The notes under the pieces are model-generated. The model was given only the letters and a program-made list of their open reading frames with translations. It was not told the DNA's origin and searched no databases. Source: a virus (Duplodnaviria > Heunggongvirae > Uroviricota > Caudoviricetes). Taken from it: 41,996 nt of DNA. The position numbers were made by a program, and so were the translations under genes. The DNA is taken from IMG/VR virus record IMGVR_UViG_2681813224_000020; one strand, given 5' to 3'. This document shows, in pieces, positions 328 through 41,527 of this stretch; positions within the stretch are counted from its first letter, which is position 1, and each line of letters starts with the position of its first letter.

Positions 328-975
328 ATGAGTGAATTTAGTAATCTTTTAAATAGCATACCTGGATGGTTATCCTCCTCCCTCACAGCTCTAGTTGGTA
401 CTCTTATTGGCGGATGGTTTACCCTAAAAGGAGTTACCCAACAAGCTAAGCTGTCTAAAGTAGAGACAGAAAGAGAATCCCTTGAATTACAACTTTCAGT
501 ATTAAAAGGAGTTAAGGGAGAAGTTTTCACCCTAATCAATTTATATAATAAAAGGATGAAAACACACATTGATAATATAAAACCGGGACAAATGTTGATT
601 CTCACATTCCCTGTAGGGGATGATAATTTCACATTCTATGAGCAAAATGCGAATGTCATTGCAAAACTAAATGATTCTGCTAGAGACTCAATAATTAACA
701 TATACACATATTCACGCTCATTAATACAATCATTTAAAGGAAACAACAAACTCATTGAGGATTATGAAAAAATCCTTATTGGCATGGCAGACAATAACAA
801 AGATAAAACCATGTATAAGAGATTACATGATGCAAAAATAAATATAATGGTAGATTATGCTCAAGGGATAAAAAATATTGATGCAGAGCTAAGAGATGCT
901 GTCAATAAGGGATTCGACATTATCGACCAAGAAGTAAAGTCACTACAAATGAAATTAAACAAATTAGCTTCATAG
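328..975 (+). CDS. Hypothetical membrane-anchored protein, AT-rich cargo gene next to the invertase
   Basis: 215-aa ORF; hydrophobic segment LTALVGTLIGGWFTL near the N-terminus, then a charged helical region; codon usage is visibly more AT-rich than the phage structural genes. Confidence 0.5.
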   Translation: MSEFSNLLNSIPGWLSSSLTALVGTLIGGWFTLKGVTQQAKLSKVETERESLELQLSVLKGVKGEVFTLINLYNKRMKTHIDNIKPGQMLILTFPVGDDNFTFYEQNANVIAKLNDSARDSIINIYTYSRSLIQSFKGNNKLIEDYEKILIGMADNNKDKTMYKRLHDAKINIMVDYAQGIKNIDAELRDAVNKGFDIIDQEVKSLQMKLNKLAS

Positions 976-1055: not shown

Positions 1056-1610
1056 TCATTTATCTCCGACCGGAAACTTCTTATACAAAGTCGATACGCC
1101 AACATCATAAATGATCGCCACCTTCTGGCGAGGAACTCCTGATGCAATTAGTCGCCCGGCCTGCGCCCATTGTTCTGGTGTAAGTTTGGGACGACGTCCA
1201 CCAATTCGTCCCTGTGCGCGAGCAGCTTCCAGTCCAGCTTTTGTTCGTTCAACAATCAGTTCTCGTTCCATTTCAGCCAGGGCCCCCATCACATGAAAGA
1301 AAAAACGCCCCATCGGTGTGCTGGTATCAATAGCATCCGTCAGGCTGCGAAAATTAACGCCACGTTCGCGCAACTCCTCAACCAGAATGACCAGATGCCG
1401 CATACTACGCCCCAGCCGATCCAGCTTCCAGACAACCAGAGTGTCACCTGCCGATAATGTCCTGAGCAGTTTTTTCAGTCCCGGCCTTTCGGACTTTGTA
1501 CCGCTTATCTTGTCTTCAAAAATCAGCTCGCATCCTGCACAGTTCAGCGCATTACGTTGTAGATCTGTGTTCTGGTCATTTGTTGACACACGTACATAGC
1601 CAATAAGCAT
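1056..1610 (-). CDS. pin: Site-specific DNA invertase, serine recombinase of the Hin/Gin/Cin/Pin family
   Basis: Translation MLIGYVRVSTNDQNTDLQRNAL... with the catalytic Ser motif YVRVSTNDQ and a C-terminal HTH. Start taken at the internal Met (ATG 1608..1610) preceded by GGGAGA; the ORF track extends to 1646. About 184 aa, the size of Pin. Adjacent to tail-fibre genes. Confidence 0.9.
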   Translation of the reverse strand: MLIGYVRVSTNDQNTDLQRNALNCAGCELIFEDKISGTKSERPGLKKLLRTLSAGDTLVVWKLDRLGRSMRHLVILVEELRERGVNFRSLTDAIDTSTPMGRFFFHVMGALAEMERELIVERTKAGLEAARAQGRIGGRRPKLTPEQWAQAGRLIASGVPRQKVAIIYDVGVSTLYKKFPVGDK

Positions 1611-1664
1611 GGTAGATCTCCCTGACAAAAGCAGGAATGATGCCATTTGCTCGTTATTTCTGCA

Positions 1665-1690
1665 TTTTCATAAACGTTGGTTTGGGAGAA
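1665..1690. repeat. Left recombination (crossover) site of the invertible segment, gix/hix-like
   Basis: TTTTCATAAACGTTGGTTTGGGAGAA; its reverse complement matches 3530..3555 at 20 of 26 positions, including a perfect 14-bp block TTGGTTTGGGAGAA. Internal dyad symmetry as expected for Din-family sites. Confidence 0.65.
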
Positions 1691-2038
1691 GCGGCGAAAA
1701 GGGATGTGGGCACAGGAGAAAATCAGATACCGGATATGTCAGCCTGGAAAAGAAATCCGAGTTCTAATCGCTGGAGAAAATTGCCTGATGGAACCATCAT
1801 TCAAATGGGAATATCAGCATCAGGGCCATTAGGCTCACCTGTAAATATCACCCTGCCGATATCTTTCAGCAATACCAATTATTGTGTTGTTGCATCGTAC
1901 GATAATGCACGGTCAGGTGTGTCAACAATGGTTAGTTTTGCAGCGTTACCTGTTTCACCATCGCAATTTTCCCTGATGTCATCTGTGACTGAGCAAGGAA
2001 TAAATCCTTTTGCTTACTGGATTGCTTTTGGAGATTAA
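1665..2038 (+). CDS. Alternative (currently silent) tail-fibre C-terminal variable exon; expressed only after inversion fuses it to the constant 5' part of the tail-fibre gene
   Basis: Same frame as ORF 1637..2038; NVGLGEA junction matches ENLGLGEG of the active gene; downstream sequence KLPDGTIIQMG... is typical of fibre tips. The ATG at 1637 is probably not a real start. Confidence 0.55.
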
Positions 2039-2041
2039 TAA

Positions 2042-2461
2042 ATGGATAGATACTTCTATTCACAAAAAGAAAATGGTTTTTTTACCGATTTAAATAAAGC
2101 ACCTTCAGATGCTGTTGAGATAACCACGGATGAATGGCTGTTACTACTGGATGGTCAGGATAATGGCATGAAAATAGTCAGCAATCAGGAGGGATATCCG
2201 GTTTTGACAGAGCAACCACCTTTATCAAAAGAAAACCTTATTGCATTGGCGGATTTGAAAAAAAGAAAACTTATTAATGAAGCCAACGAGCACATGAACA
2301 GCAGACAATGGCCAGGTAAAGCGGCTATTGGTCGTCTGAAAAGTGAGGAACTGGCGCAATATAATTTATGGCTGGATTATCTGGACGCACTGGAACTGGT
2401 TGATACCTCCAGTGCGCCAGATATTGAATGGCCTACGCCTCCGGCAGTTCAGGCCAGATGA
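2042..2461 (+). CDS. Tail-fibre assembly protein (alternative copy, Tfa')
   Basis: 139-aa ORF directly after the alternative fibre exon; C-terminal [26 protein letters not shown] parallels the C-terminus of the opposite-strand Tfa ([24 protein letters not shown]). Confidence 0.7.
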   Translation: MDRYFYSQKENGFFTDLNKAPSDAVEITTDEWLLLLDGQDNGMKIVSNQEGYPVLTEQPPLSKENLIALADLKKRKLINEANEHMNSRQWPGKAAIGRLKSEELAQYNLWLDYLDALELVDTSSAPDIEWPTPPAVQAR

Positions 2462-3038
2462 CATCCGGCGCGGTGCTGGTATCTGTTGCAGTCACCGCGT
2501 CAATGTAATCCAGCACGGCGTTAAGTCGGGTTGTTTCTGTCTGCGTCAGTTTACGTGCGGCCTGCAATTTCAGCTGAATCAGACTGATGGAAGCCATTGC
2601 AGCATCAATCAGTGACTGACGCTGTGCTTCTGCCGCGTCTACTGCGGCGCTATGCTGTGCCTCAGTATCGGTCACCCATTTCTCACCATCCCATTTATCG
2701 TATGGCGTTAATGGGGCGATAGTGGTTGTATTTTCAGGGTAATCACCCGGAACTGTGATTTCTTTGGTATCTCCCGTTTCGGTACTATAGACAACTTCAC
2801 CGCGATGGTCTGGCACATATTCCCATGAGTTTAAATCTGCCGAACGACAGATTGCATAACCAGCTTTATGTGTACCTGGTGCATCCAGACAGGAACATGC
2901 CGGGATACCGACGCCGACAGCGAGATATTCAGTTGATGTAGAAATATATTCCCGCGTTTCACCATCATAATTATAAACGGTAATATCTCCCGCTTTTATG
3001 GCAATGAGTTCGCTATTTAATACAGCTTTATTCATCAT
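2433..3038 (-). CDS. Tail-fibre assembly protein (Tfa) for the currently expressed fibre
   Basis: 201-aa ORF immediately downstream of the tail-fibre gene; conserved Tfa C-terminal motif. Confidence 0.75.
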
Positions 3039-7098: not shown

Positions 7099-7629
7099 TC
7101 AAACCTTACTTATTAACATGCACGTTACAGAAATAATAAAAAATACAAATGACATAACCATCCATCGAAACAACTCATTTACAAACGCTGATTTTTCTTT
7201 ATGGATTTTCTCGATTCTATCAATAGCCCTACCATACATTATCAAATGAAATCTGACTGTGTCATCTCTACTACCCCTCAGAAGAAATTCATGTTGTTCA
7301 GGTGTTCGATGCACAGGCATTTTGGGAATATTTCTAAGTTCCCAACATTTCCATAAATAATAAAAACAAAAAACCAAACATACAAAACATGAACATAGAC
7401 ACAATAGAGACAATCTTGCGGATAGACTAGTCTTTAACTGTTGTCCCAGCTCAAAGGACCCAAAAACGGCTAATAATGCAGAAATCTCAACACCAAGCAC
7501 AGCAAGAAGAAAATTAGCTTTGTCCTCTAACCGCCTGTATGTTGTCTTAACTTCTTCATACCTGTCTCTCGAGTACGACAAAATCGTATCTACTTCAAGG
7601 CCAACAGCCTCATTCCTTTGATTGCACAT
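7099..7629 (-). CDS. Hypothetical integral membrane protein (AT-rich moron inside the baseplate gene cluster)
   Basis: 176 aa; N-terminal charged helix, then hydrophobic stretches FLLAVLGVEISALLAVFGSF, LSLLCLCSCFVCLVFCFYYLW and FRWMVMSFVFFIISVTCMLI; clearly AT-rich against flanking tail genes. Confidence 0.6.
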   Translation of the reverse strand: MCNQRNEAVGLEVDTILSYSRDRYEEVKTTYRRLEDKANFLLAVLGVEISALLAVFGSFELGQQLKTSLSARLSLLCLCSCFVCLVFCFYYLWKCWELRNIPKMPVHRTPEQHEFLLRGSRDDTVRFHLIMYGRAIDRIEKIHKEKSAFVNELFRWMVMSFVFFIISVTCMLISKV

Positions 7630-32704: not shown

Positions 32705-34207
32705 GTGTCAACTTTGAGAATCGGTATGGAAATCCAAGAGTTTGTAAGTCACTATAAAAACCACCCTGTTCTATTCATTGGAACAGGATTTAGCCTACGG
32801 TATCTAGAAAACTCATTTAGCTGGGATGGTCTTCTTTTGAGTGTCGCAATGGAACTAACCGGTAATGCTGAGTTTTACTACGATTTGAAAGCTGAAAGCC
32901 TAGAAGGTGACGACTATCGATATGATATCTTAGCTACAAAACTTGAAGATATTTTTAATAAAAAGCTGGCAGAAGACCGTAACGGTAAGTTCAAAGACAT
33001 CAATGATGTTTTCTATGAGCACATGAAAAAAGGAAAAAAACTAAGTCGATTCAAAATTTATTTAACTTCAATACTTAAAGACCTAAAGATAAAAGAGTCA
33101 ATGATGGAGGAAATAAACAGCTTAATAAAAACAAGAAAAAACATAGGCTCCATCATTACAACAAACTACGACCAACTCGTAGAGAATATCTTCGAATTTA
33201 ACCCACTGATTGGTAACAACATTCTTTTAAGTAACCCATACGGTTCAGTTTACAAAATACATGGCTGTGTTAGTGATCCTAACAACATAATTATCACAGG
33301 TGAAGACTACGCAAACTTCGACAATAAATATGAGTTAATTCGCGCTCAATTACTCTCAATATTCATACACAACCCTATCATATTTATAGGGTATAGTATT
33401 AGCGATAAAAACATTAAGTACTTATTAAAAACCATATTCTCATACGTTGACTTAAATACCGAACTTGCAAAAAGGATAAAAGATAATTTCCTTTTGGTTG
33501 AATACGAAAAAGACAGCATGTCAACTGAAATTACGGAGCATGACATAGATATAGAAGGCATGTCTATCATAAGAATAAACAAAATAAAAACAAACAATTA
33601 CAAAGCTGTATATGATGCCATCTCTGGACTAGTTTTGCCAGTATCCGCAATGGACATAAGAAAGGTTCAAAAAGTTTGGAGTACCATCAAAAGTGGTGGT
33701 GAGATAAAGGTTAAAATTACAGAAAATTTAGATGAACTTCGCAATGATGAAATGGTCATTGCTGTTGGTTCAGAAAGAACCGTACAATATGTTTATCAAA
33801 CAAAATCTGAAATGATACAGAACTATTTTAAAATAGTTGACGAAGCAAACTCTCAGCTTATCGCATTACTGAATAAGCAAACCATAGCTAATAGCGAACA
33901 CTTTCCAATATACGCTTTTAGTTCTATCTGCCCTGAACTAGAAAATACCGAGACATACAGAAAACGGCAGCTAGATAAAATCATTGGTAACCTTTCTCGA
34001 ATTAAAACATGTAAGAGTGAGGCTGTGTCTATTGATGAAATACTAAAAGAAACGAAAGAGTATAAAGTTGCTAACACGATTATGTATTGCGTACTAAACG
34101 ATACTATTTCATTGAAACAACTACGAGATTATTTAACAAAACCAGGGCATAAAATTGATACCCAATACAGGCGACTTTTATGCTTGTATGATTATTTATC
34201 ATATTAA
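32705..34207 (+). CDS. SIR2-like (SIR2_2 / DUF4020-type) protein with a C-terminal domain of unknown function; candidate NADase-type anti-phage defence gene, AT-rich insertion
   Basis: 500 aa; motifs in order PVLFIGTGFS, SWDGLL, IITTNYDQLVE, YKIHGCVSDPNNIIITGEDY, NPIIFIGYSISDKN match the hallmark pattern of the defence-associated SIR2 family; codon usage is strongly AT-rich against its flanks; GTG start with RBS AGAGG; own terminator. Confidence 0.7.
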   Translation: MSTLRIGMEIQEFVSHYKNHPVLFIGTGFSLRYLENSFSWDGLLLSVAMELTGNAEFYYDLKAESLEGDDYRYDILATKLEDIFNKKLAEDRNGKFKDINDVFYEHMKKGKKLSRFKIYLTSILKDLKIKESMMEEINSLIKTRKNIGSIITTNYDQLVENIFEFNPLIGNNILLSNPYGSVYKIHGCVSDPNNIIITGEDYANFDNKYELIRAQLLSIFIHNPIIFIGYSISDKNIKYLLKTIFSYVDLNTELAKRIKDNFLLVEYEKDSMSTEITEHDIDIEGMSIIRINKIKTNNYKAVYDAISGLVLPVSAMDIRKVQKVWSTIKSGGEIKVKITENLDELRNDEMVIAVGSERTVQYVYQTKSEMIQNYFKIVDEANSQLIALLNKQTIANSEHFPIYAFSSICPELENTETYRKRQLDKIIGNLSRIKTCKSEAVSIDEILKETKEYKVANTIMYCVLNDTISLKQLRDYLTKPGHKIDTQYRRLLCLYDYLSY

Positions 34208-34283: not shown

Positions 34284-36359
34284 ATGCAAAAACTTTGGTT
34301 AGACCTCGAAACTTTCAGCGAAATCCCAATAAAAAACGGCACCCATGTCTATGCAGAAGGAGTCGAAATCATGTTATTCGCATGGGCAATCGACGAAGAC
34401 CCCGTCAGCGTACACGATTTAACCACAGACTATAACTTGCCGACACGACTACTGACAGCTCTCAGCGATGAGAGCGTACTAATATATGCACACAACAGCC
34501 ATTTCGATCGCACCATGTTGCGCCATGCATTACTGCACACTCCCCAATGTGTTGTTGCAGGTAGTGCCAAACGCTGGCGAGACACAATGGTACAGGCGCT
34601 GGCGCATGGTCTCCCGGGGTCTCTGGGGGAACTCTGCGAAATACTCGGCGTCCCGCAAGACAAAGCGAAGGACAAAGAAGGTAAAGCGCTGATCCAGCTG
34701 TTCTGTAAGCCCCGCCCGAAAAACAGCAAACTGCGCCGTGCCACCAGCAAAACCCACCCGGAAGAATGGCGGCGCTTTGTTGCTTACGCCGGACTGGATA
34801 TCGAGGCAATGCGCGAAGTCTATAAACGTCTGCCGAAGTGGAATTATCAGGGGACAGAGCTGGCGCTCTGGCATCGTGATCAGCAGATCAACGACCGGGG
34901 CGTCTGCATGGACATGCAACTCGCGCGCGCTGCGATCGAAGCGGTAGACCAGGAGCAAAAGCGCCTGGCAAAGCGTACACAGGAAATGACTGATGGCGAA
35001 GTGCAGGCAGCCACACAACGGGACGCGTTGATTAAGCACATTGTTGAATCCTACAGTGTGGAGCTACCAGACATGCAACGCAGTACTCTGGAACGTCGTA
35101 TTGCCGACCCCGATTTACCATCTGCCGTGAAAGAACTGCTGGCTATCCGCCTGCAAGCCAGTACTACCAGCACCAGTAAATACAAGGCACTGATGAAAGG
35201 CGTAAGCCACGACGGGCGCTTACGCGGTACGCTACAGTTCTGCGGGGCGTCACGTACCGGTCGTTGGGCCGGACGGCTATTCCAGCCCCAGAACCTTCCC
35301 CGCCCTTCACTAAAACAGGAACAAATAGACGAAGGCATCGAAGCACTGAAAGCCGGATGTGCAGACCTGCTGTTTGACAATATCATGGAACTAACCAGTT
35401 CAGCGTTACGTGGCTGCATTATCGCGCCAACAGGCAAAAAACTGGTGGTAAGTGACTTGTCAAACATTGAAGGCCGTATGCTGGCATGGCTGGCGGGAGA
35501 AGAATGGAAACTGAATGCATTCAGAGAGTACGACGCCGGAACGGGTCCGGACTTATATAAACTGGCGTATGCAAAAGCTTTCGATATTGCACCAGATGAT
35601 GTTGATAAACACATGCGTCAGATCGGTAAAGTCATGGAACTCGGTCTGGGTTATGGAGGTGGTGTATCGGCTTTCATCACTTTTGCTCTGGTTTACGGTC
35701 TCGATCTCGACGAGCTGGCGAACGCCGCACTGCCAAACATTCCCCGCGATGTTATCCGCGAGGCGAAAAGCTGGTACGACGAATCGGTTAAACGTAAGTC
35801 GACCTTTGGCCTTTCCGAGCGTGTATTCATCGCATGTGACTCGCTCAAGCGCCTGTGGCGCAGGGCGCACCCGGCGACCTGCGATTTCTGGTACGAGCTG
35901 GAGCGCACTGTCCGCACAGCAATCGCCACACCGCAAAAAACATTGTATTGCGGTTATCTTAAAATCCGACGTGATGGCGCGTGGCTGCGCATACAGCTAC
36001 CATCCGGACGCGCTGTATGCTACCCGTCTCCGGTTATCGAAAAAGGGAATATCACCTATATGGGTGTTAACTCTTATTCGCGTAAATGGCAACGACTCAA
36101 AACCTACGGCGGAAAGCTGGTGGAGAACGTCACCCAGGCGGCCGCCCGCGACGTTCTGGCCGGAAACATGCCGCTTATCGAAGATGCCGGTTACAGCATT
36201 GTGTTGACGGTACACGACGAGGTGATCACCGAAGCACCTGACACAGAAGATTTCAACGATAAAGTGCTTTCCGCGCTTCTCTCCACTAACCCCGAATGGG
36301 CGCCCGATATCCCACTGAACGCTGGCGGTTTTGAGGCGTACCACTACCGTAAGGATTAG
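34284..36359 (+). CDS. Family-A DNA polymerase (3'-5' exonuclease plus polymerase domains)
   Basis: Exo I LDLETFSE; motif [19 protein letters not shown]; motif [17 protein letters not shown]; motif C TVHDEV. Start taken at [11 protein letters not shown] (ATG 34284); the ORF-track start 34242 lies inside the upstream terminator. Confidence 0.85.
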
Positions 36360-36412
36360 CTGCTCGCTGTCATTGCTGCTTTGCTAAATATTGCTTATTT
36401 TATAGGAAAATA

Positions 36413-37174
36413 ATGATGCAGGATCTCAATGAAATGGCTCTCAAATACCCACACCCTGTCGAAACTTTTCGTCAATTTTTAGTCGAATCCGGATTTGATG
36501 TTACCGGAGAAGAAAACAAAGCCGGTCATGATTGTTATCGTTTAAGTAATGGTGCCATCATAACGCTTTACCACACCGGAACGATTTTGATTCAAGGCTC
36601 ACAAGCGGCAAAACCAGAGGTTGAAGCCATTATTAATGAACACTTGGGTAACGCGCCAGCTCAACGAGTTCAGCCAGCCCCGGTTCAAGAGCCAGCCAAA
36701 AAGATTTTCATCGTTCACGGTCACGACCATGCAGCAAAAGAGCAGCTTGAGCTCATTCTTCATAAGCTTGGGTTACCTGATCATTTTATTTTGCAGAATA
36801 CAGGTGGTACTGGACTTACGATAATTGAAGAACTGGAGCGTGAAATTGGTCAAGGGCAGACAGCGACTCGTTTCGGCATTGTTCTTCTCACTCCCGATGA
36901 TGTGGGATACTCCAAAAGAGACGGTCAAGAAGCAGCCCTGCCCAGGGCTCGTCAAAATGTAGTTCTAGAAATGGGGATGTTGTTATCATCACTCGGCCGC
37001 AGTAACGTGGTCATCTTGCAGAAGCAACACCTTGAACAGCCTTCTGATGCTGCGGGTATTCTTTATCTCAACTTTAATGATCATGTTCGAGAAACTGTAC
37101 CTCGCTTAATCCAGCGCCTTAAACAGGCCGGTTTCACATTTAATGAAGCTCAAATAGCGAACGCTTCATCTTAA
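36413..37174 (+). CDS. Two-domain protein: small N-terminal domain plus C-terminal Rossmann-like nucleotide-binding domain resembling TIR-like / SLOG families; candidate accessory gene
   Basis: 253 aa; C-terminal domain motifs KKIFIVHGHDHAAKEQ, NTGGTGLTIIEELERE, FGIVLLTPDD; Pro/Gln-rich linker APAQRVQPAPVQEPA; RBS AGGAAA; own terminator. Family assignment is tentative. Confidence 0.4.
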   Translation: MMQDLNEMALKYPHPVETFRQFLVESGFDVTGEENKAGHDCYRLSNGAIITLYHTGTILIQGSQAAKPEVEAIINEHLGNAPAQRVQPAPVQEPAKKIFIVHGHDHAAKEQLELILHKLGLPDHFILQNTGGTGLTIIEELEREIGQGQTATRFGIVLLTPDDVGYSKRDGQEAALPRARQNVVLEMGMLLSSLGRSNVVILQKQHLEQPSDAAGILYLNFNDHVRETVPRLIQRLKQAGFTFNEAQIANASS

Positions 37175-37195
37175 TCAATCATTTTTCTAAAAAGT

Positions 37196-37228
37196 AAATA
37201 CCCCTGCAAATGCAGGGGTATTTATTTG
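37196..37228 (+). terminator. Rho-independent terminator after the TIR/SLOG-like gene
   Basis: ACCCCTGCAAATGCAGGGGT followed by ATTTATTTG. Confidence 0.55.
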
Positions 37229-37239
37229 AGGTAACCCCT

Positions 37240-37461
37240 ATGTCATTTAAATATCGGGACAGTCCGCTTTATTATCGGACTGCACAGGAGGCTTTGCGCC
37301 TTGAGCAGTCCGGCGAGTATGACCGGGCGGCGAAGGTCTGGGCCAAAGCAAACCGTGAATCACGTAACGAACTTAATCAGGACTGGAGAGAGCGCCGGGC
37401 TGATTCTTGCCTGATGCAGAACATGCGTGAAAAGCGTAAGGCGGTGGATGATGGCCTATGA
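37240..37461 (+). CDS. Small hypothetical protein
   Basis: Start MSFKYRDSPLYY (ATG 37240) preceded by GAGGTAA; overlaps the VRR-NUC start; the ORF-track start 37210 lies in the terminator stem. Confidence 0.35.
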   Translation: MSFKYRDSPLYYRTAQEALRLEQSGEYDRAAKVWAKANRESRNELNQDWRERRADSCLMQNMREKRKAVDDGL

Positions 37462-37732: not shown

Positions 37733-37876
37733 TTATGGTTTTTTGGGTGGTGGAGCTGGCTGGGAAGTTTGCTTCGAAGGTTGAAAACCATTATTAGCCA
37801 AGTCATTTTTAGGCTGATACCCTTTTTCAATAGGGGTATATCCATCTTCCTTATAACTTCTTTTGGTATCTGACAT
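37733..37876 (-). CDS. Small Pro/Lys-rich hypothetical protein (47 aa), translationally coupled to the upstream membrane-protein gene; absent from the ORF track
   Basis: Hand translation MSDTKRSYKEDGYTPIEKGYQPKNDLANNGFQPSKQTSQPAPPPKKP; its ATG shares one base with the TGA of the 206-aa gene (TGATG overlap). Confidence 0.3.
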   Translation of the reverse strand: MSDTKRSYKEDGYTPIEKGYQPKNDLANNGFQPSKQTSQPAPPPKKP

Positions 37877-38496
37877 CAGTTGCTTTCTCCATTATTGCAT
37901 GTTGGTAGTTCAAAACGGAAAAACTCTAAATTTTCTATATCGTTACCTAAAATTAATATTCCTAATGTTGAAACTCGAGGGCGTTCAAATCCCCCATCAT
38001 CGTTTAGAACCCAATGTTCCTCAAGATAAATTTGCTCTGGCTCTGGTGCACTGGAAGCAAATGAGTTAGCCCCAAACTTGCCTGCTATTTTTTTACCATT
38101 TTTTAGCGTAATAATCATCCAACAGGGGACTTTTAACCCAAAGAAATAATCCCAAGCTCTTCCGGTAGGATGTGGCATATAATTACATAACCAACGCCAA
38201 GTTCGCATCCAAGAGAAAAATATCGTTAACAATATTGGGCTAATGAATAAAATCACCAAGTATAAAGCACAATAAAGAACAGGATGTTTGAGATATACAC
38301 CCTCAGATTCTATAAAATATATAGGAGCAAACCATACTGCGTAATTTATACAGCTATAAGAAACAATTTCCACAATCGCTTTAGAAGTATCAAAAGCGGT
38401 ATTAGGATGAATAACACTATAAACTTTCATACTTATAAAACCAGGAATAACGAAAAGCAAAAATATAATAATTTTACTTTTTTCCCAAATATCCAT
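37876..38496 (-). CDS. Hypothetical integral membrane protein, AT-rich antisense moron inside the early replication operon
   Basis: 206 aa; hydrophobic segments IIIFLLFVIPGFI, AVWFAPIYFI, VLYCALYLVILFISPILLTIFF, then a soluble C-terminal domain; RBS AGGGG; opposite strand to all neighbours; strongly AT-rich. Confidence 0.6.
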   Translation of the reverse strand: MDIWEKSKIIIFLLFVIPGFISMKVYSVIHPNTAFDTSKAIVEIVSYSCINYAVWFAPIYFIESEGVYLKHPVLYCALYLVILFISPILLTIFFSWMRTWRWLCNYMPHPTGRAWDYFFGLKVPCWMIITLKNGKKIAGKFGANSFASSAPEPEQIYLEEHWVLNDDGGFERPRVSTLGILILGNDIENLEFFRFELPTCNNGESN

Positions 38497-39930: not shown

Positions 39931-40127
39931 GCGAGAAACCCGACGATTTACTCACCCCGGATGAAGTATGCCAAAAGTTAGGTATTACACAGAAAACGCT
40001 ATGTGAGTGGAATATTAAGCATCGTCATCGGGCTATCCTGGCACCAATTCGTTTCAGTGCAAAAGTAGTTCGTTATGAGCGCCGAAATGTCGACGCTTTT
40101 ATTCAAAAATGTCGCAGCCAGTATTAA
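39927..40127 (+). CDS. AlpA/excisionase-like small DNA-binding protein
   Basis: 66 aa; LLTPDEVCQKLGITQKTLCEWN helix-turn-helix typical of AlpA/Xis proteins; immediately adjacent to the integrase. Confidence 0.6.
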   Translation: MSEKPDDLLTPDEVCQKLGITQKTLCEWNIKHRHRAILAPIRFSAKVVRYERRNVDAFIQKCRSQY

Positions 40128-41527
40128 CCTCGCCGCCGTAGCAATGCCACCTGCGCAAGTATGCTCCGCTCGTGAGCCTCGAAAGCTTCGCGCTTCAACG
40201 CAATCTCTTCCTGTAAAATCTCATCAGAAAAGTCGTAATGTTCTGCCATCGGGTCATCTGACTTGCTGGAGTGGTGAAGGCAAAGGAGGCTGATTTCCCT
40301 TCGGTCTGAGCGGGAATAGCCTCTTTCCTTCATCAAGGCAATAACATTGCTCTTAAGGAATTTACGGCACATCGTATTAAATGCACCGTCTTTCCCTTTA
40401 ACAGTCCCATCATGTTTTATTCCTTTTACAGCCCCGTCCGGGCTGTATGTTTTCACCAGCTTATCCAGTGATCGTTTTGAAAATGGCTGCATTGGATCAC
40501 GTGGCTGCAAAAATACATAATCCCTGTTGCACTCAGGAACTGAATCACGCCAGGCTTTCTGCTCGTCGATAATCCGCCGGATCTCAGGCGTTATCGGCAG
40601 GCGGAAAGCCTTTTGTGTTTTCATAGCCCCTCGCATGCCGATAACCCCTTCCGGATAAACAATTTCACCAGCCTCCTCGTGAACGTAGTCCCAGCGCAGG
40701 TTATGGACATTAATCGGACGAACACCAGTGATGATCATGAAGCGAACAGCATTCTTCTGGTGTACAGAGGTGCAGGCAGCAACATTGAGCCAGAGTCGGG
40801 CGATTGATTCAATATCGGTAAAAAGCCGTGTGGGGGTAGGTTTCTGTACGCGGGAGGAAACATAATCATCTGGCAGACTGGCGGCAACATTGCGGCCGTT
40901 GCAAAGAGTAGGTGCGCAGAACTTCCAGAACCGACGGAGCTCGGCAAACAACTCCAGGGCGTTATTGTTCGAGCGAGTGGCGATCCACTCGTCCAGCACT
41001 TCCACCAGCCGACTGTATGTTACGTCGCTGAACACCTCGCGCTCGCCGAACGTTGATTTAATCCGGTCGATACGCACCCCGTAGGTTGTGAAACTGTCCG
41101 GGCTCAGCTTCTGACGGGCTACTTTGGCTTTGAGGTCATCCCGGTACATTTCCAGCGCTGCATGTACGGACTCTGCCCGCAGTCCACCGTCAGCCATACC
41201 TAGTGCTTTTTCGCGCGCCAGCTGGATAGCGAGCTCCGGCCACTCGCCGAGCTTTTTACCTTTGAGGCCCATCTTTTTTGGAAACTCGGCGTAAAATGTA
41301 ACCTTACCGGCTTTGCTGAAATCGATACGGAGATAGTTCTCTTTTTCGTATTTGGAACGGCGAGCCACGCCGGAAGCAGCGAGGATGATTTTGGCGGCAG
41401 CAACACAGATTTTCATGTGTGCGCTGGTATAGGGGGGTTTACAGGCGTCCCATTTTTCAGAAGCGGCTAAAACATCGTCATTATTGGGGCTATCCGGATT
41501 ATGTGTTACAGTGCGCGGCATTCTCAA
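40124..41527 (-). CDS. Tyrosine site-specific integrase
   Basis: 467 aa; ITGVRP...LRWDY (box I Arg), MKTQKAF (Lys), LHHSSKSDDPMAEHYDF (box II His and catalytic Tyr); RBS AAGGA; at the prophage edge next to the host gene. Confidence 0.85.
   Translation of the reverse strand: MRMPRTVTHNPDSPNNDDVLAASEKWDACKPPYTSAHMKICVAAAKIILAASGVARRSKYEKENYLRIDFSKAGKVTFYAEFPKKMGLKGKKLGEWPELAIQLAREKALGMADGGLRAESVHAALEMYRDDLKAKVARQKLSPDSFTTYGVRIDRIKSTFGEREVFSDVTYSRLVEVLDEWIATRSNNNALELFAELRRFWKFCAPTLCNGRNVAASLPDDYVSSRVQKPTPTRLFTDIESIARLWLNVAACTSVHQKNAVRFMIITGVRPINVHNLRWDYVHEEAGEIVYPEGVIGMRGAMKTQKAFRLPITPEIRRIIDEQKAWRDSVPECNRDYVFLQPRDPMQPFSKRSLDKLVKTYSPDGAVKGIKHDGTVKGKDGAFNTMCRKFLKSNVIALMKERGYSRSDRREISLLCLHHSSKSDDPMAEHYDFSDEILQEEIALKREAFEAHERSILAQVALLRRRG

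What the first reader, a model, noticed from the sequence alone, without database searches (positions are those of the whole stretch)
36360..37228. TIR/SLOG-like nucleotide-binding protein as a separate transcription unit, possibly a partner of the SIR2-like gene
The C-terminal domain (KKIFIVHGHDHAAKEQ ... NTGGTGLTIIEELERE ... FGIVLLTPDD) looks like a Rossmann/flavodoxin-type nucleotide-binding fold. The FIVHG start recalls bacterial TIR-like effector domains, and GGTG...EE recalls the PGGxGTxxE motif of LOG/SLOG sensors. Both families are tied to nucleotide-signalling defence, and Thoeris combines exactly SIR2, SLOG and TIR. The gene has its own RBS, a candidate promoter and a clean terminator. 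It sits 2.2 kb from the SIR2-like gene with only the polymerase between them. A split SIR2 plus TIR/SLOG system inside a phage replication module would be unusual.
Basis: inference. Interest (0 to 1): 0.6.

Follow-up and report, generated by a model that had tools for sequence, protein, structure and literature searches.

The report
Stand-alone phage-borne TIR defence gene
The gene is real and encodes a TIR-type (probably NAD-destroying) anti-phage protein that works alone rather than with the nearby SIR2 gene; its small sensor domain resembles one known to bind RNase HI and RNA:DNA hybrids, which suggests what it detects.

Summary
The ORF at 36413-37174 (+), 253 aa, is real. It sits in an 870-bp cargo cassette (36360-37230) between the DNA polymerase and the ANR regulator gene of an E. 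coli myovirus-type prophage integrated at yfhL.

- **C-terminal domain:** it is a CAP12/PycTIR-class TIR domain, not SLOG. Four residues with defined roles in the SfSTING NADase site align with residues invariant in this family.
- **Whole protein:** it matches the untested single-gene PADLOC candidate PDC-S35 (E 1.7e-109).
- **SIR2 partnership:** not supported. The SIR2 gene is a separate single-gene candidate (PDC-S25) with a different GC content. 43 of 47 E. coli genomes with the TIR gene lack it. No SIR2 lies within 10 kb in 96 homologous loci. In Vibrio the gene is a single integron cassette.
- **N-terminal domain (new):** it is a TBP-like fold closest to the RNase HIII hybrid-binding domain and the RnlA/LsoA NRD, which associates with RNase HI.
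- **RNase HI link (new):** in 13 of 79 loci from three phyla, an RNase HI gene overlaps the stop codon of the TIR gene.
- **Portable sensor (new):** the same N-domain also heads dCTP-deaminase defence proteins and a multi-pass membrane protein.

Most likely it is a self-contained abortive-infection NADase whose sensor reads RNase HI or RNA:DNA hybrids. That mechanism is inferred, not shown.

The parts
36360..37230 (+). Cargo ('moron') cassette inserted between the polymerase stop codon and the ANR regulator gene
   Evidence: Homology to prophage 21KM1392, which lacks the gene, ends at 36358 and resumes at 37231. Other relatives carry different genes in this slot. GC is 0.45 against 0.53 for the flanking genes.
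36404..36407 (+). Shine-Dalgarno AGGA, 5 nt upstream of the ATG
   Evidence: Read directly from the sequence. AGGAA is the only upstream element shared by alleles A and B.
36413..37174 (+). CDS, 253 aa: PDC-S35-type TIR protein
   Evidence: ORF list. PADLOC PDLC05003 covers aa 11-253 at E 1.7e-109. RefSeq WP_021563492.1 'TIR domain-containing protein'.
36437..36652 (+). N-terminal TBP-like (RNase HIII N-domain / RnlA-LsoA NRD-like) putative sensor domain, aa 9-80
36653..36697 (+). Variable Pro/Ala/Gln-rich linker, aa 81-95
   Evidence: pLDDT below 50 at residues 81-92. Length and sequence vary across homologues.
36701..37078 (+). CAP12/PycTIR-class TIR domain, aa 97-222 (fold continues to aa 253)
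36968..36970 (+). Codon for E186, the predicted catalytic glutamate (NVVLEMG motif)
   Evidence: Aligns with E84 of SfSTING in NVVFEFG. Invariant in 45 homologues.
37195..37224 (+). Intrinsic-terminator-like hairpin (13-bp stem) followed by a T-rich tail; belongs to the cassette
   Evidence: Hairpin plus T-run conserved with pair-preserving changes in alleles A and B.

Best explanation
The gene is a self-contained, single-gene anti-phage candidate of the PADLOC PDC-S35 family. It is carried as an exchangeable cargo cassette in the polymerase-to-ANR slot of an E. coli prophage at yfhL. The protein has two domains. The fast-evolving N-terminal domain has a TBP-like fold, homologous at fold level to the RNA/DNA-hybrid-binding N-domain of RNase HIII and to the RNase HI-associating NRD of the RnlA/LsoA toxins. 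The C-terminal domain is a very conserved CAP12/PycTIR-class TIR domain that keeps the residues of a composite NADase site. Proposed mechanism (inferred): in uninfected cells the TIR domains are monomeric or inactive. During infection, the N-domain engages its cue, most likely RNA:DNA hybrids and/or a changed state of RNase HI. This brings TIR domains together so that D212 of one subunit completes the E186 site of the next. NAD+ is then hydrolysed and the infected cell is arrested or dies (abortive infection). RNase HI acts as the cognate regulator. It is encoded immediately downstream in about 16% of sampled family members and would be supplied by the host rnhA gene in E. coli. The SIR2 gene 2.2 kb upstream is an independent single-gene cargo, not a partner. 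Shown: gene, cassette, domain identities, conserved active-site residues, independence from SIR2, RNase HI gene linkage, reuse of the sensor domain. Inferred: NADase activity, oligomerisation, the nature of the cue, and the defence phenotype itself.
For: Active site: SfSTING residues R78, N80, catalytic E84 and the trans-acting D110 (PMC9402430) align with R178, N182, E186 and D212. All four are invariant in 45 homologues from many phyla.
Stand-alone unit: in Vibrio parahaemolyticus the gene is one cassette bounded by attC-like repeats, in an array with 23 copies of the repeat core. In another lineage it is the first gene after an integron-type integrase. Elsewhere it is solitary beside a transposase or sits in a defence island. 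No neighbour recurs apart from RNase H.
Independence from SIR2: E. coli counts are polymerase 159 genomes, TIR 47, SIR2 5, both 4. SIR2 occurs without TIR in 21KM1392.
RNase HI link: an RNase_H (PF00075) gene lies directly downstream with stop/start overlap in 13 of 79 loci from Verrucomicrobia, Chloroflexota/Dehalococcoidia and Acidobacteria. Most have unrelated flanks. Published work shows that RNase HI associates with the RnlA NRD and controls RnlA (PMC5308261). The isolated RNase H3 N-domain binds only RNA/DNA hybrids (PMC4132731).
Portability: the same N-domain replaces the N-terminus of dCTP-deaminase defence proteins (PADLOC dCTPase E 7e-173 and 1e-103) and heads a multi-pass membrane protein.
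Against: No experiment, here or in the searched literature, shows defence, NADase activity or RNase HI binding for this family. PDC-S35 is only a candidate.
The N-domain is not basic (net charge -4 here, family median -1), which argues against strong direct nucleic-acid binding.
Sequence-level similarity of the N-domain to RNase HIII and LsoA is below significance on its own (E 0.098 and 0.66; best Pfam E 8.5e-4 in 4 of 45 members).
The window contains no RNase H gene, and 66 of 79 loci lack a linked one.
The TIR domain's very high conservation across phyla is unusual for a defence effector. It could reflect another conserved substrate.
The TIR part of the model is only moderately confident (whole-protein pLDDT 76).
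Confidence: 0.6

Rival explanations
1. One reading: the TIR gene and the SIR2 gene form one split, Thoeris-like signalling system. The TIR domain makes a nucleotide signal and SIR2 is the NAD-depleting effector.
For: Both genes lie in the same replication module, 2.2 kb apart. The SIR2 protein hits ThsA SIR2-domain models (E 3.6e-18). Four of five SIR2-bearing E. coli prophages also carry a TIR allele (hypergeometric p=0.027), including one with the other allele (Rb-50).
Against: The four co-occurrences come from only two independent lineages: three prophages are 100% identical. With three SIR2 lineages the p value is 0.21. 43 of 47 TIR-bearing genomes lack SIR2, and 21KM1392 has SIR2 without TIR. 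In 23CRST009 the SIR2 gene is split by IS1 while the TIR gene is intact. The ThsA hit covers only the SIR2 domain (model positions 85-270 of 478), and no SLOG receiver was detected. The TIR domain is of the CAP12/PycTIR effector class (PF10137), not ThsB. The genes are separate cassettes with GC 0.33 and 0.45. No SIR2 was found near 96 other homologues.
Confidence: 0.04
2. The C-terminal domain is a TIR-like glycosidase acting on a substrate other than NAD+, such as a nucleotide, a modified base or an RNA-DNA junction. It would work together with RNase HI in nucleic-acid processing rather than in NAD depletion.
Against: The best matches are TIR NADases. Four residues with defined roles in the SfSTING NADase site are invariant, including the trans-acting D110 equivalent. 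Swapping of the N-domain onto dCTP deaminase and membrane effectors fits a sensor-plus-toxic-effector design.
Confidence: 0.15
3. The gene serves the prophage's own lytic cycle or counter-defence, for example by modulating host NAD+ or RNase HI during replication, rather than excluding other phages.
For: It lies inside the replication module, directly after the polymerase. The 53-nt gap has no terminator and no convincing promoter of its own, so it is probably co-transcribed with early or replication genes. It is present in sequenced virions or induced phages of this type.
Against: It is present in only about 30% of related prophages, with unrelated genes in the same slot. The same gene occurs as an integron cassette, in defence islands and in non-phage chromosomal contexts. 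The family was flagged as a defence candidate by PADLOC.
Confidence: 0.1
4. The domain is a SLOG/LOG-type nucleotide sensor rather than a TIR domain.
For: Only the loose resemblance of NTGGTGLTIIEELE to PGGxGTxxE.
Confidence: 0.01

Closest known systems
PADLOC candidate system PDC-S35 (single-gene phage defence candidate, PADLOC-DB v2)
   Same: Full-length HMM match (aa 11-253 to profile positions 3-245 of 245, E 1.7e-109). Single-gene organisation.
   Different: Nothing differs; this is a member. The family has no described mechanism or validation in the literature I could search.
CBASS Cap12 effectors (TIR-STING, TIR-SAVED) and Pycsar PycTIR
   Same: Same TIR subclass (PF10137). R178, N182, E186 and D212 correspond to SfSTING R78, N80, E84 and D110. 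Same design: a sensor domain fused to a TIR NADase that is activated by assembly.
   Different: There is no STING, SAVED or cNMP-binding domain and no adjacent cyclase. The sensor is N-terminal and TBP-like. The cue is therefore not a cyclic nucleotide made by a partner enzyme.
RnlA/LsoA toxins (RnlAB, LsoAB anti-T4 toxin-antitoxin systems)
   Different: The effector is a TIR domain, not a HEPN RNase. There is a single TBP-like domain rather than a tandem pair. No RnlB-like antitoxin gene is present.
RNase HIII N-terminal substrate-binding (TBP-like) domain, Pfam DUF3378
   Different: There is no RNase H2/3 catalytic domain. The domain here is acidic to neutral. Pfam scores are below the gathering threshold (15.5 against 27 bits).
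Thoeris (ThsA SIR2-SLOG plus ThsB TIR)
   Same: A TIR gene and a SIR2 gene lie in one 5-kb stretch. The SIR2 domain resembles that of ThsA.
   Different: The genes are not adjacent, not co-inherited, and lack a SLOG domain. The TIR is of the CAP12 class rather than ThsB. See the membership test.
SpbK (Bacillus ICEBs1) and other single-protein TIR abortive-infection NADases
   Different: The TIR subclass and the sensor region are different, and the trigger here is unknown.

Membership tests
PADLOC PDC-S35 | Full-length match to the family HMM | tested here: met
   PDLC05003 E 1.7e-109, aa 11-253 to profile positions 3-245 of 245. Four further PDC-S35 models score E 2e-58 to 3e-43.
PADLOC PDC-S35 | Single-gene system with no obligate partner | tested here: met
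   Single integron cassette in Vibrio. No recurrent neighbour in 79 loci except RNase H in 16%.
PADLOC PDC-S35 | Confers phage resistance | not testable with these tools
   No experimental report found.
CAP12/PycTIR TIR domain (Pfam PF10137) | Profile match above the gathering threshold | tested here: met
   107.4 bits against a cut-off of 24.7, aa 97-222 covering profile positions 1-118 of 119.
CAP12/PycTIR TIR domain (Pfam PF10137) | TIR fold | tested here: met
CAP12/PycTIR TIR domain (Pfam PF10137) | Catalytic glutamate and NAD-site residues | tested here: met
   E186, R178, N182 and D212 align with SfSTING E84, R78, N80 and D110 and are invariant.
CAP12/PycTIR TIR domain (Pfam PF10137) | NAD+ glycohydrolase activity | not testable with these tools
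   Needs biochemistry.
CBASS / Pycsar effector | Fused cyclic-nucleotide receptor (STING, SAVED or cNMP-binding domain) | tested here: not met
   The only other domain is the TBP-like N-domain.
CBASS / Pycsar effector | Adjacent CD-NTase or pyrimidine cyclase gene | tested here: not met
   Neighbours in the window are the polymerase and the ANR regulator. No cyclase family appears among the recurrent neighbours in 79 loci.
Thoeris | ThsB-type TIR gene adjacent to and co-inherited with ThsA | tested here: not met
   The genes are separated by the polymerase, sit in different cassettes, and separate in both directions.
Thoeris | Effector with a SLOG (or Macro) signal-receiver domain | tested here: not met
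   The SIR2 protein shows only SIR2_2 (aa 149-246). The ThsA model match is limited to the SIR2 part.
SLOG / LOG | LOG-type Rossmann fold with the PGGxGTxxE motif | tested here: not met
RnlA/LsoA toxin | TBP-like NTD/NRD domain | tested here: inconclusive
RnlA/LsoA toxin | C-terminal HEPN RNase (Dmd-binding domain) and a downstream antitoxin RnlB/LsoB | tested here: not met
   The C-terminal domain is TIR. The downstream gene is the ANR regulator.
RNase HIII | RNase H2/3 catalytic domain after the TBP-like N-domain | tested here: not met
   No RNase H domain in the protein or in the window.

The most novel reading that the evidence does not exclude
The small TBP-like/NRD-like domain is a widespread, portable infection sensor. 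It reads the state of RNase HI or the accumulation of RNA:DNA hybrids, a cue not yet established for bacterial immunity. It has been coupled repeatedly to different suicide effectors: TIR NADase here, dCTP deaminase, membrane proteins, and the HEPN RNase of RnlA/LsoA. RNase HI would act as the guarded host factor or antitoxin-like regulator. It is encoded in an operon where the host copy does not suffice. If so, this would explain the long-puzzling RNase HI dependence of RnlA as one case of a general principle.
Probability: 0.3. Interest if true: 0.8.

Novelty: new variant of a known kind. Interest (0 to 1): 0.5.

Why it matters
The locus is better read as two or three independent cargo slots of a prophage, each loaded with a single-gene defence candidate.

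The gene still gives a concrete and cheap entry point to an uncharacterised but very widespread family. There are 3311 hits at E<=0.001 in the protein collection, and the gene was found in 237 species-representative genomes from many phyla.

The link between sensor domain and RNase HI turns 'what does this TIR protein sense?' into a directly testable question. E. coli delta-rnhA and rnhA-overexpression hosts are available, as are hybrid-binding and pull-down assays. The link also connects to the unexplained requirement of the RnlA toxin for RNase HI.

Tried and rejected
- **SLOG/LOG reading.** Rejected by Pfam, profile-to-PDB and fold searches.
- **Own promoter in the 53-nt spacer.** By eye I found only a 7-of-12 match (TTGCTG, 17-nt spacer, TATTTT), which would start transcription at or inside the RBS. 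It is not in the scan output and not conserved in allele B. I rejected it as evidence for a separate 5' transcription unit.
- **SIR2 partnership.** Tested by E. coli population counts, by phmmer/tblastn of the window SIR2 against 96 loci, and by Pfam scans of 300 neighbouring ORFs. Nothing was found. The single-sequence SIR2 search has limited sensitivity, and the Pfam summaries list only the 25 most frequent families, so a single distant SIR2 could have been missed. A recurrent one could not.
- **Apparent upstream 'ABC/AAA ATPase' neighbour cluster (12 loci).** Rejected. Its members lie at variable distances and on either strand, so it is an artefact of clustering generic P-loop proteins.
- **Crude ORF calling.** It missed RNase H in L097 and L100 because an antisense ORF was chosen. 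tblastn corrected this.
- **Literature.** Searches for PDC-S35, PF10137, the protein accessions, DUF3378 and TIR plus RNase HI found no description of this family or of a TIR-RNase HI link. The library lacks most subscription journals, so absence is not proof.
- **Direct nucleic-acid binding by the N-domain.** Considered and down-weighted, not rejected, because the domain is acidic to neutral.

Full report
**1. Observation**

An AGGA Shine-Dalgarno lies 5 nt before the ATG. A 13-bp GC-rich hairpin at 37195-37224 with a T-rich tail follows the stop codon.

The window is 100% identical over this stretch to E. coli ECONIH2, where RefSeq annotates the same CDS as a 'TIR domain-containing protein'. 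The element is a prophage integrated next to yfhL, with its integrase at 40124-41527. The left part of the window carries myovirus baseplate and tail-fibre genes.

The SIR2-like gene is at 32705-34207, with only the family-A polymerase between it and the TIR gene.

The 'candidate promoter' is not supported:
- No site in 36360-36412 passes the scan. The nearest hit lies inside the polymerase gene at 36238-36265.
- Promoter-like sites are no more frequent than in shuffled sequence.
- The spacer is unrelated between the two alleles of the cassette apart from the RBS.

The terminator is better supported. A hairpin plus T-run is kept, with pair-preserving changes, in both alleles.

**2. What the protein is**

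*C-terminal domain.* Residues 97-222 match Pfam PF10137, the CAP12/Pycsar effector TIR domain, at E 5.8e-31. A 36-sequence profile finds Cap12 TIR-STING (7un8, 9lmq) and PycTIR (8jsj) in the PDB.

No LOG/SLOG structure appears in the lists.

Published SfSTING work defines R78 and N80 as NAD-contacting residues, E84 as the catalytic residue, and D110 as a residue donated in trans by a neighbouring TIR (PMC9402430). In the HMM alignment these fall on R178, N182, E186 and D212. The chain numbering is offset by +8, which all four residue identities confirm. All four are invariant in 45 homologues. The domain therefore looks like an assembly-activated NADase. The 'GGTG...EE' motif lies in the flexible loop after strand 2 and is not a LOG motif.

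Weak but concordant sequence signals point the same way:
- Profile hits to Aquifex RNase HIII (E 0.098) and to the NRD of LsoA (E 0.66), sharing the Y..TG..(I/L)QG motif.

*Whole protein.* It matches the single-gene PADLOC candidate PDC-S35 end to end (E 1.7e-109). The SIR2 protein matches a different single-gene candidate, PDC-S25 (E 4e-158).

**3. A cargo cassette, independent of SIR2**

Compared with a related prophage that lacks the gene (21KM1392), homology stops at 36358 and resumes at 37231. The same slot holds a 67-aa ORF in 21KM1392, and a hypothetical gene plus a YfbU-family gene in O55:H7 CB9615.

GC content differs: SIR2 0.33, TIR 0.45, polymerase 0.53. The two cargo genes therefore have different origins.

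Counts among 5426 complete E. coli genomes:

| Feature | Genomes |
|---|---|
| Polymerase of this prophage type | 159 |
| TIR gene, allele A | 10 |
| TIR gene, allele B (72% aa identity) | 37 |
| SIR2 gene | 5 |

Twenty-one genomes appear in both of the listed tables (polymerase and TIR), always with the TIR gene directly after the polymerase.

Four genomes carry both genes, but three of them are identical prophages. One of those has SIR2 split by IS1. 21KM1392 has SIR2 without TIR, and 43 genomes have TIR without SIR2 (for example). The nominal enrichment (p=0.027) disappears when lineages are counted instead of genomes (p=0.21).

Allele B is also present in three sequenced Escherichia phages of this type, again without SIR2.

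**4. The wider family**

The protein collection holds 3311 relatives at E<=0.001. Most are about 250 aa with the same two domains. A scan of species-representative genomes confirmed 237 encoding loci from Proteobacteria, Acidobacteria, Verrucomicrobia, Chloroflexota, Planctomycetes, Bacteroidota, Cyanobacteria and others.

Contexts are heterogeneous:
- In Vibrio parahaemolyticus it is a single cassette bounded by attC-like repeats in a superintegron array.
- In another lineage it is the first gene after an integron-type integrase.
- In Vreelandella it lies in an island with DUF4062, a reverse transcriptase and toxin-antitoxin pairs.
- In a Burkholderiales genome it is a lone gene beside a transposase.

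I clustered 1509 neighbouring ORFs from 80 loci and ran Pfam scans on the two genes on each side. These found no SIR2 and no cyclase, and only one recurrent neighbour.

**5. The recurrent neighbour is RNase HI**

In 13 of 79 loci, an RNase_H (PF00075) gene follows the TIR gene on the same strand (E down to 1.8e-47). Its start overlaps or abuts the TIR stop codon. The catalytic motifs are intact in the copy I read (L041).

The 13 loci come from Verrucomicrobia, Chloroflexota/Dehalococcoidia and Vicinamibacterales. Most have unrelated flanking genes. They fall in at least three places in a rough NJ tree. The pair is therefore conserved as a unit.

This matches two published facts about the two closest relatives of the N-domain:
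- The isolated RNase H3 N-domain binds RNA/DNA hybrids specifically, through Tyr43 and Gly52 among other residues (PMC4132731). Y53 and G62 here have the same 9-residue spacing.
- RNase HI associates with the NRD of RnlA. It is required both to activate RnlA after T4 infection and for RnlB to neutralise it (PMC5308261).

The window itself contains no RNase H gene. In E. coli the host rnhA gene would have to play that part.

**6. The N-domain is a portable module**

A profile of the N-domain alone finds 957 representatives at E<=0.001. Most are TIR proteins or fragments of them. The exceptions include:
- P0223 and P0264, which match the PADLOC dCTP-deaminase defence model (E 7e-173 and 1e-103). 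The PDC-S35 N-domain replaces the first ~140 positions of that profile.
- P0230, where the domain precedes a long, very hydrophobic multi-pass region.
- P0148, a tandem of two such domains, as in RnlA.

Within the TIR family the N-domain evolves much faster than the effector domain: mean pairwise identity 36% against 73%, and dN between the E. coli alleles 0.51 against 0.095. Both observations fit a sensor domain attached to interchangeable suicide effectors.

**7. Most likely mechanism**

*Shown:*
- The protein is a two-domain protein with a TBP/NRD-like N-domain and a CAP12-class TIR domain that has an intact composite NADase site.
- It is carried as a one-gene mobile cassette.
- It is genetically linked to RNase HI in a subset of lineages.

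*Inferred:*
- Infection produces the cue, either RNA:DNA hybrids or a change in RNase HI.
- The N-domain engages the cue.
- TIR domains assemble so that D212 completes the neighbouring E186 site.
- NAD+ is depleted and infection is aborted.

RNase HI could act as a brake by removing hybrids or occupying the sensor. Alternatively it could be a co-activator, as it is for RnlA. The sequence data do not decide between these. The acidic to neutral charge of the N-domain leans towards protein binding rather than strong nucleic-acid binding. I put about 0.85 on 'stand-alone CAP12-class TIR defence candidate, not a SIR2 partner' and about 0.3-0.35 on the RNase HI/hybrid sensing step.

**8. Comparison with known systems, and novelty**

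By sequence it is a member of PDC-S35 and of Pfam PF10137. It is not a CBASS or Pycsar effector, because it lacks a cyclic-nucleotide receptor and a cyclase. It is not Thoeris, not SLOG, not an RnlA toxin and not an RNase HIII (see the membership table).

It works most like TIR-STING, TIR-SAVED or PycTIR, where a sensor is fused to an assembly-activated TIR NADase. The difference is that its sensor is of the RnlA-NRD type.

I found no paper describing this architecture or a TIR-RNase HI link. The searchable library is incomplete, however. I therefore rate it a new variant of a known kind.

**9. Limits**
- Everything functional is inferred.
- The TIR part of the model has only moderate confidence.
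- N-domain homology rests on fold similarity plus sub-threshold sequence hits.
- The neighbourhood sample is the best 80 of 237 loci, called with a crude ORF finder.
- The NJ tree is approximate.
- The E. coli counts depend on BLAST thresholds.
The conclusions rest on the locus-derived RNase H queries.

Noticed in passing
L041:10750-11274, L056, L070, L078, L081, L083, L086, L088, L091, L092, L095, L097, L100 (gene directly after the TIR homologue): An RNase HI gene is translationally coupled to the TIR gene in 13 of 79 loci from three phyla, mostly with unrelated flanking genes. This is the only recurrent neighbour of the family.
   Followed up: partly
P0223 (617 aa), P0264 (471 aa), P0230 (428 aa), P0148 (220 aa): The PDC-S35 N-domain also heads dCTP-deaminase defence proteins (PADLOC dCTPase E 7e-173 and 1e-103) and a multi-pass membrane protein. 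It also occurs as a tandem pair without an effector.
   Followed up: partly
window 32705-34207 (+): SIR2_2 protein matching the single-gene PADLOC candidate PDC-S25 (E 4e-158). GC is 0.33. It occupies a second variable slot between the DUF2815 gene and the polymerase. That slot holds an antirepressor gene or small reverse-strand ORFs in relatives. The gene is split by IS1 in strain 23CRST009.
   Followed up: partly
window 37876-38496 (-), plus the 47-aa ORF at 37733-37876 (-): A DUF6338 gene (E 1.2e-35, GC 0.34, no PADLOC hit) on the opposite strand fills a third variable slot between the VRR-NUC gene and the SNF2 helicase. Relatives carry methyltransferases or unrelated hypothetical genes there.
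   Followed up: partly
window 1056-3038: A resolvase/invertase gene (1056-1646, -) lies next to a tail-fibre C-terminal fragment and two oppositely oriented tail-fibre assembly genes. This looks like a Mu/P1-type invertible host-range segment.
   Followed up: no
window 328-972 (+) and 7099-7629 (-): Two low-GC ORFs (GC 0.33-0.41) have no Pfam hit. The second has weak sub-threshold PADLOC PycTM hits (E 2.6e-4). They may be further cargo genes.
   Followed up: no
L005:9009-9187 and L007:8681-8859: In prophages carrying TIR allele B, the ANR (PerC-like) regulator gene downstream of the cassette is annotated as frameshifted. It is intact in the window at 37240-37461.
   Followed up: no
L009:6963-7979 (Vibrio parahaemolyticus): The homologue is a single cassette bounded by attC-like repeats of about 125 nt. 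The array has 23 copies of the repeat core in 15.8 kb, so this is a chromosomal superintegron.
   Followed up: yes
window 36413-36697 compared with L007:7855-8139: The two E. coli alleles of the cassette have diverged mainly in the N-domain (dN 0.51) while the TIR domain is nearly unchanged (dN 0.095). Synonymous sites are saturated in both domains. The alleles are therefore old and were probably acquired separately.
   Followed up: partly
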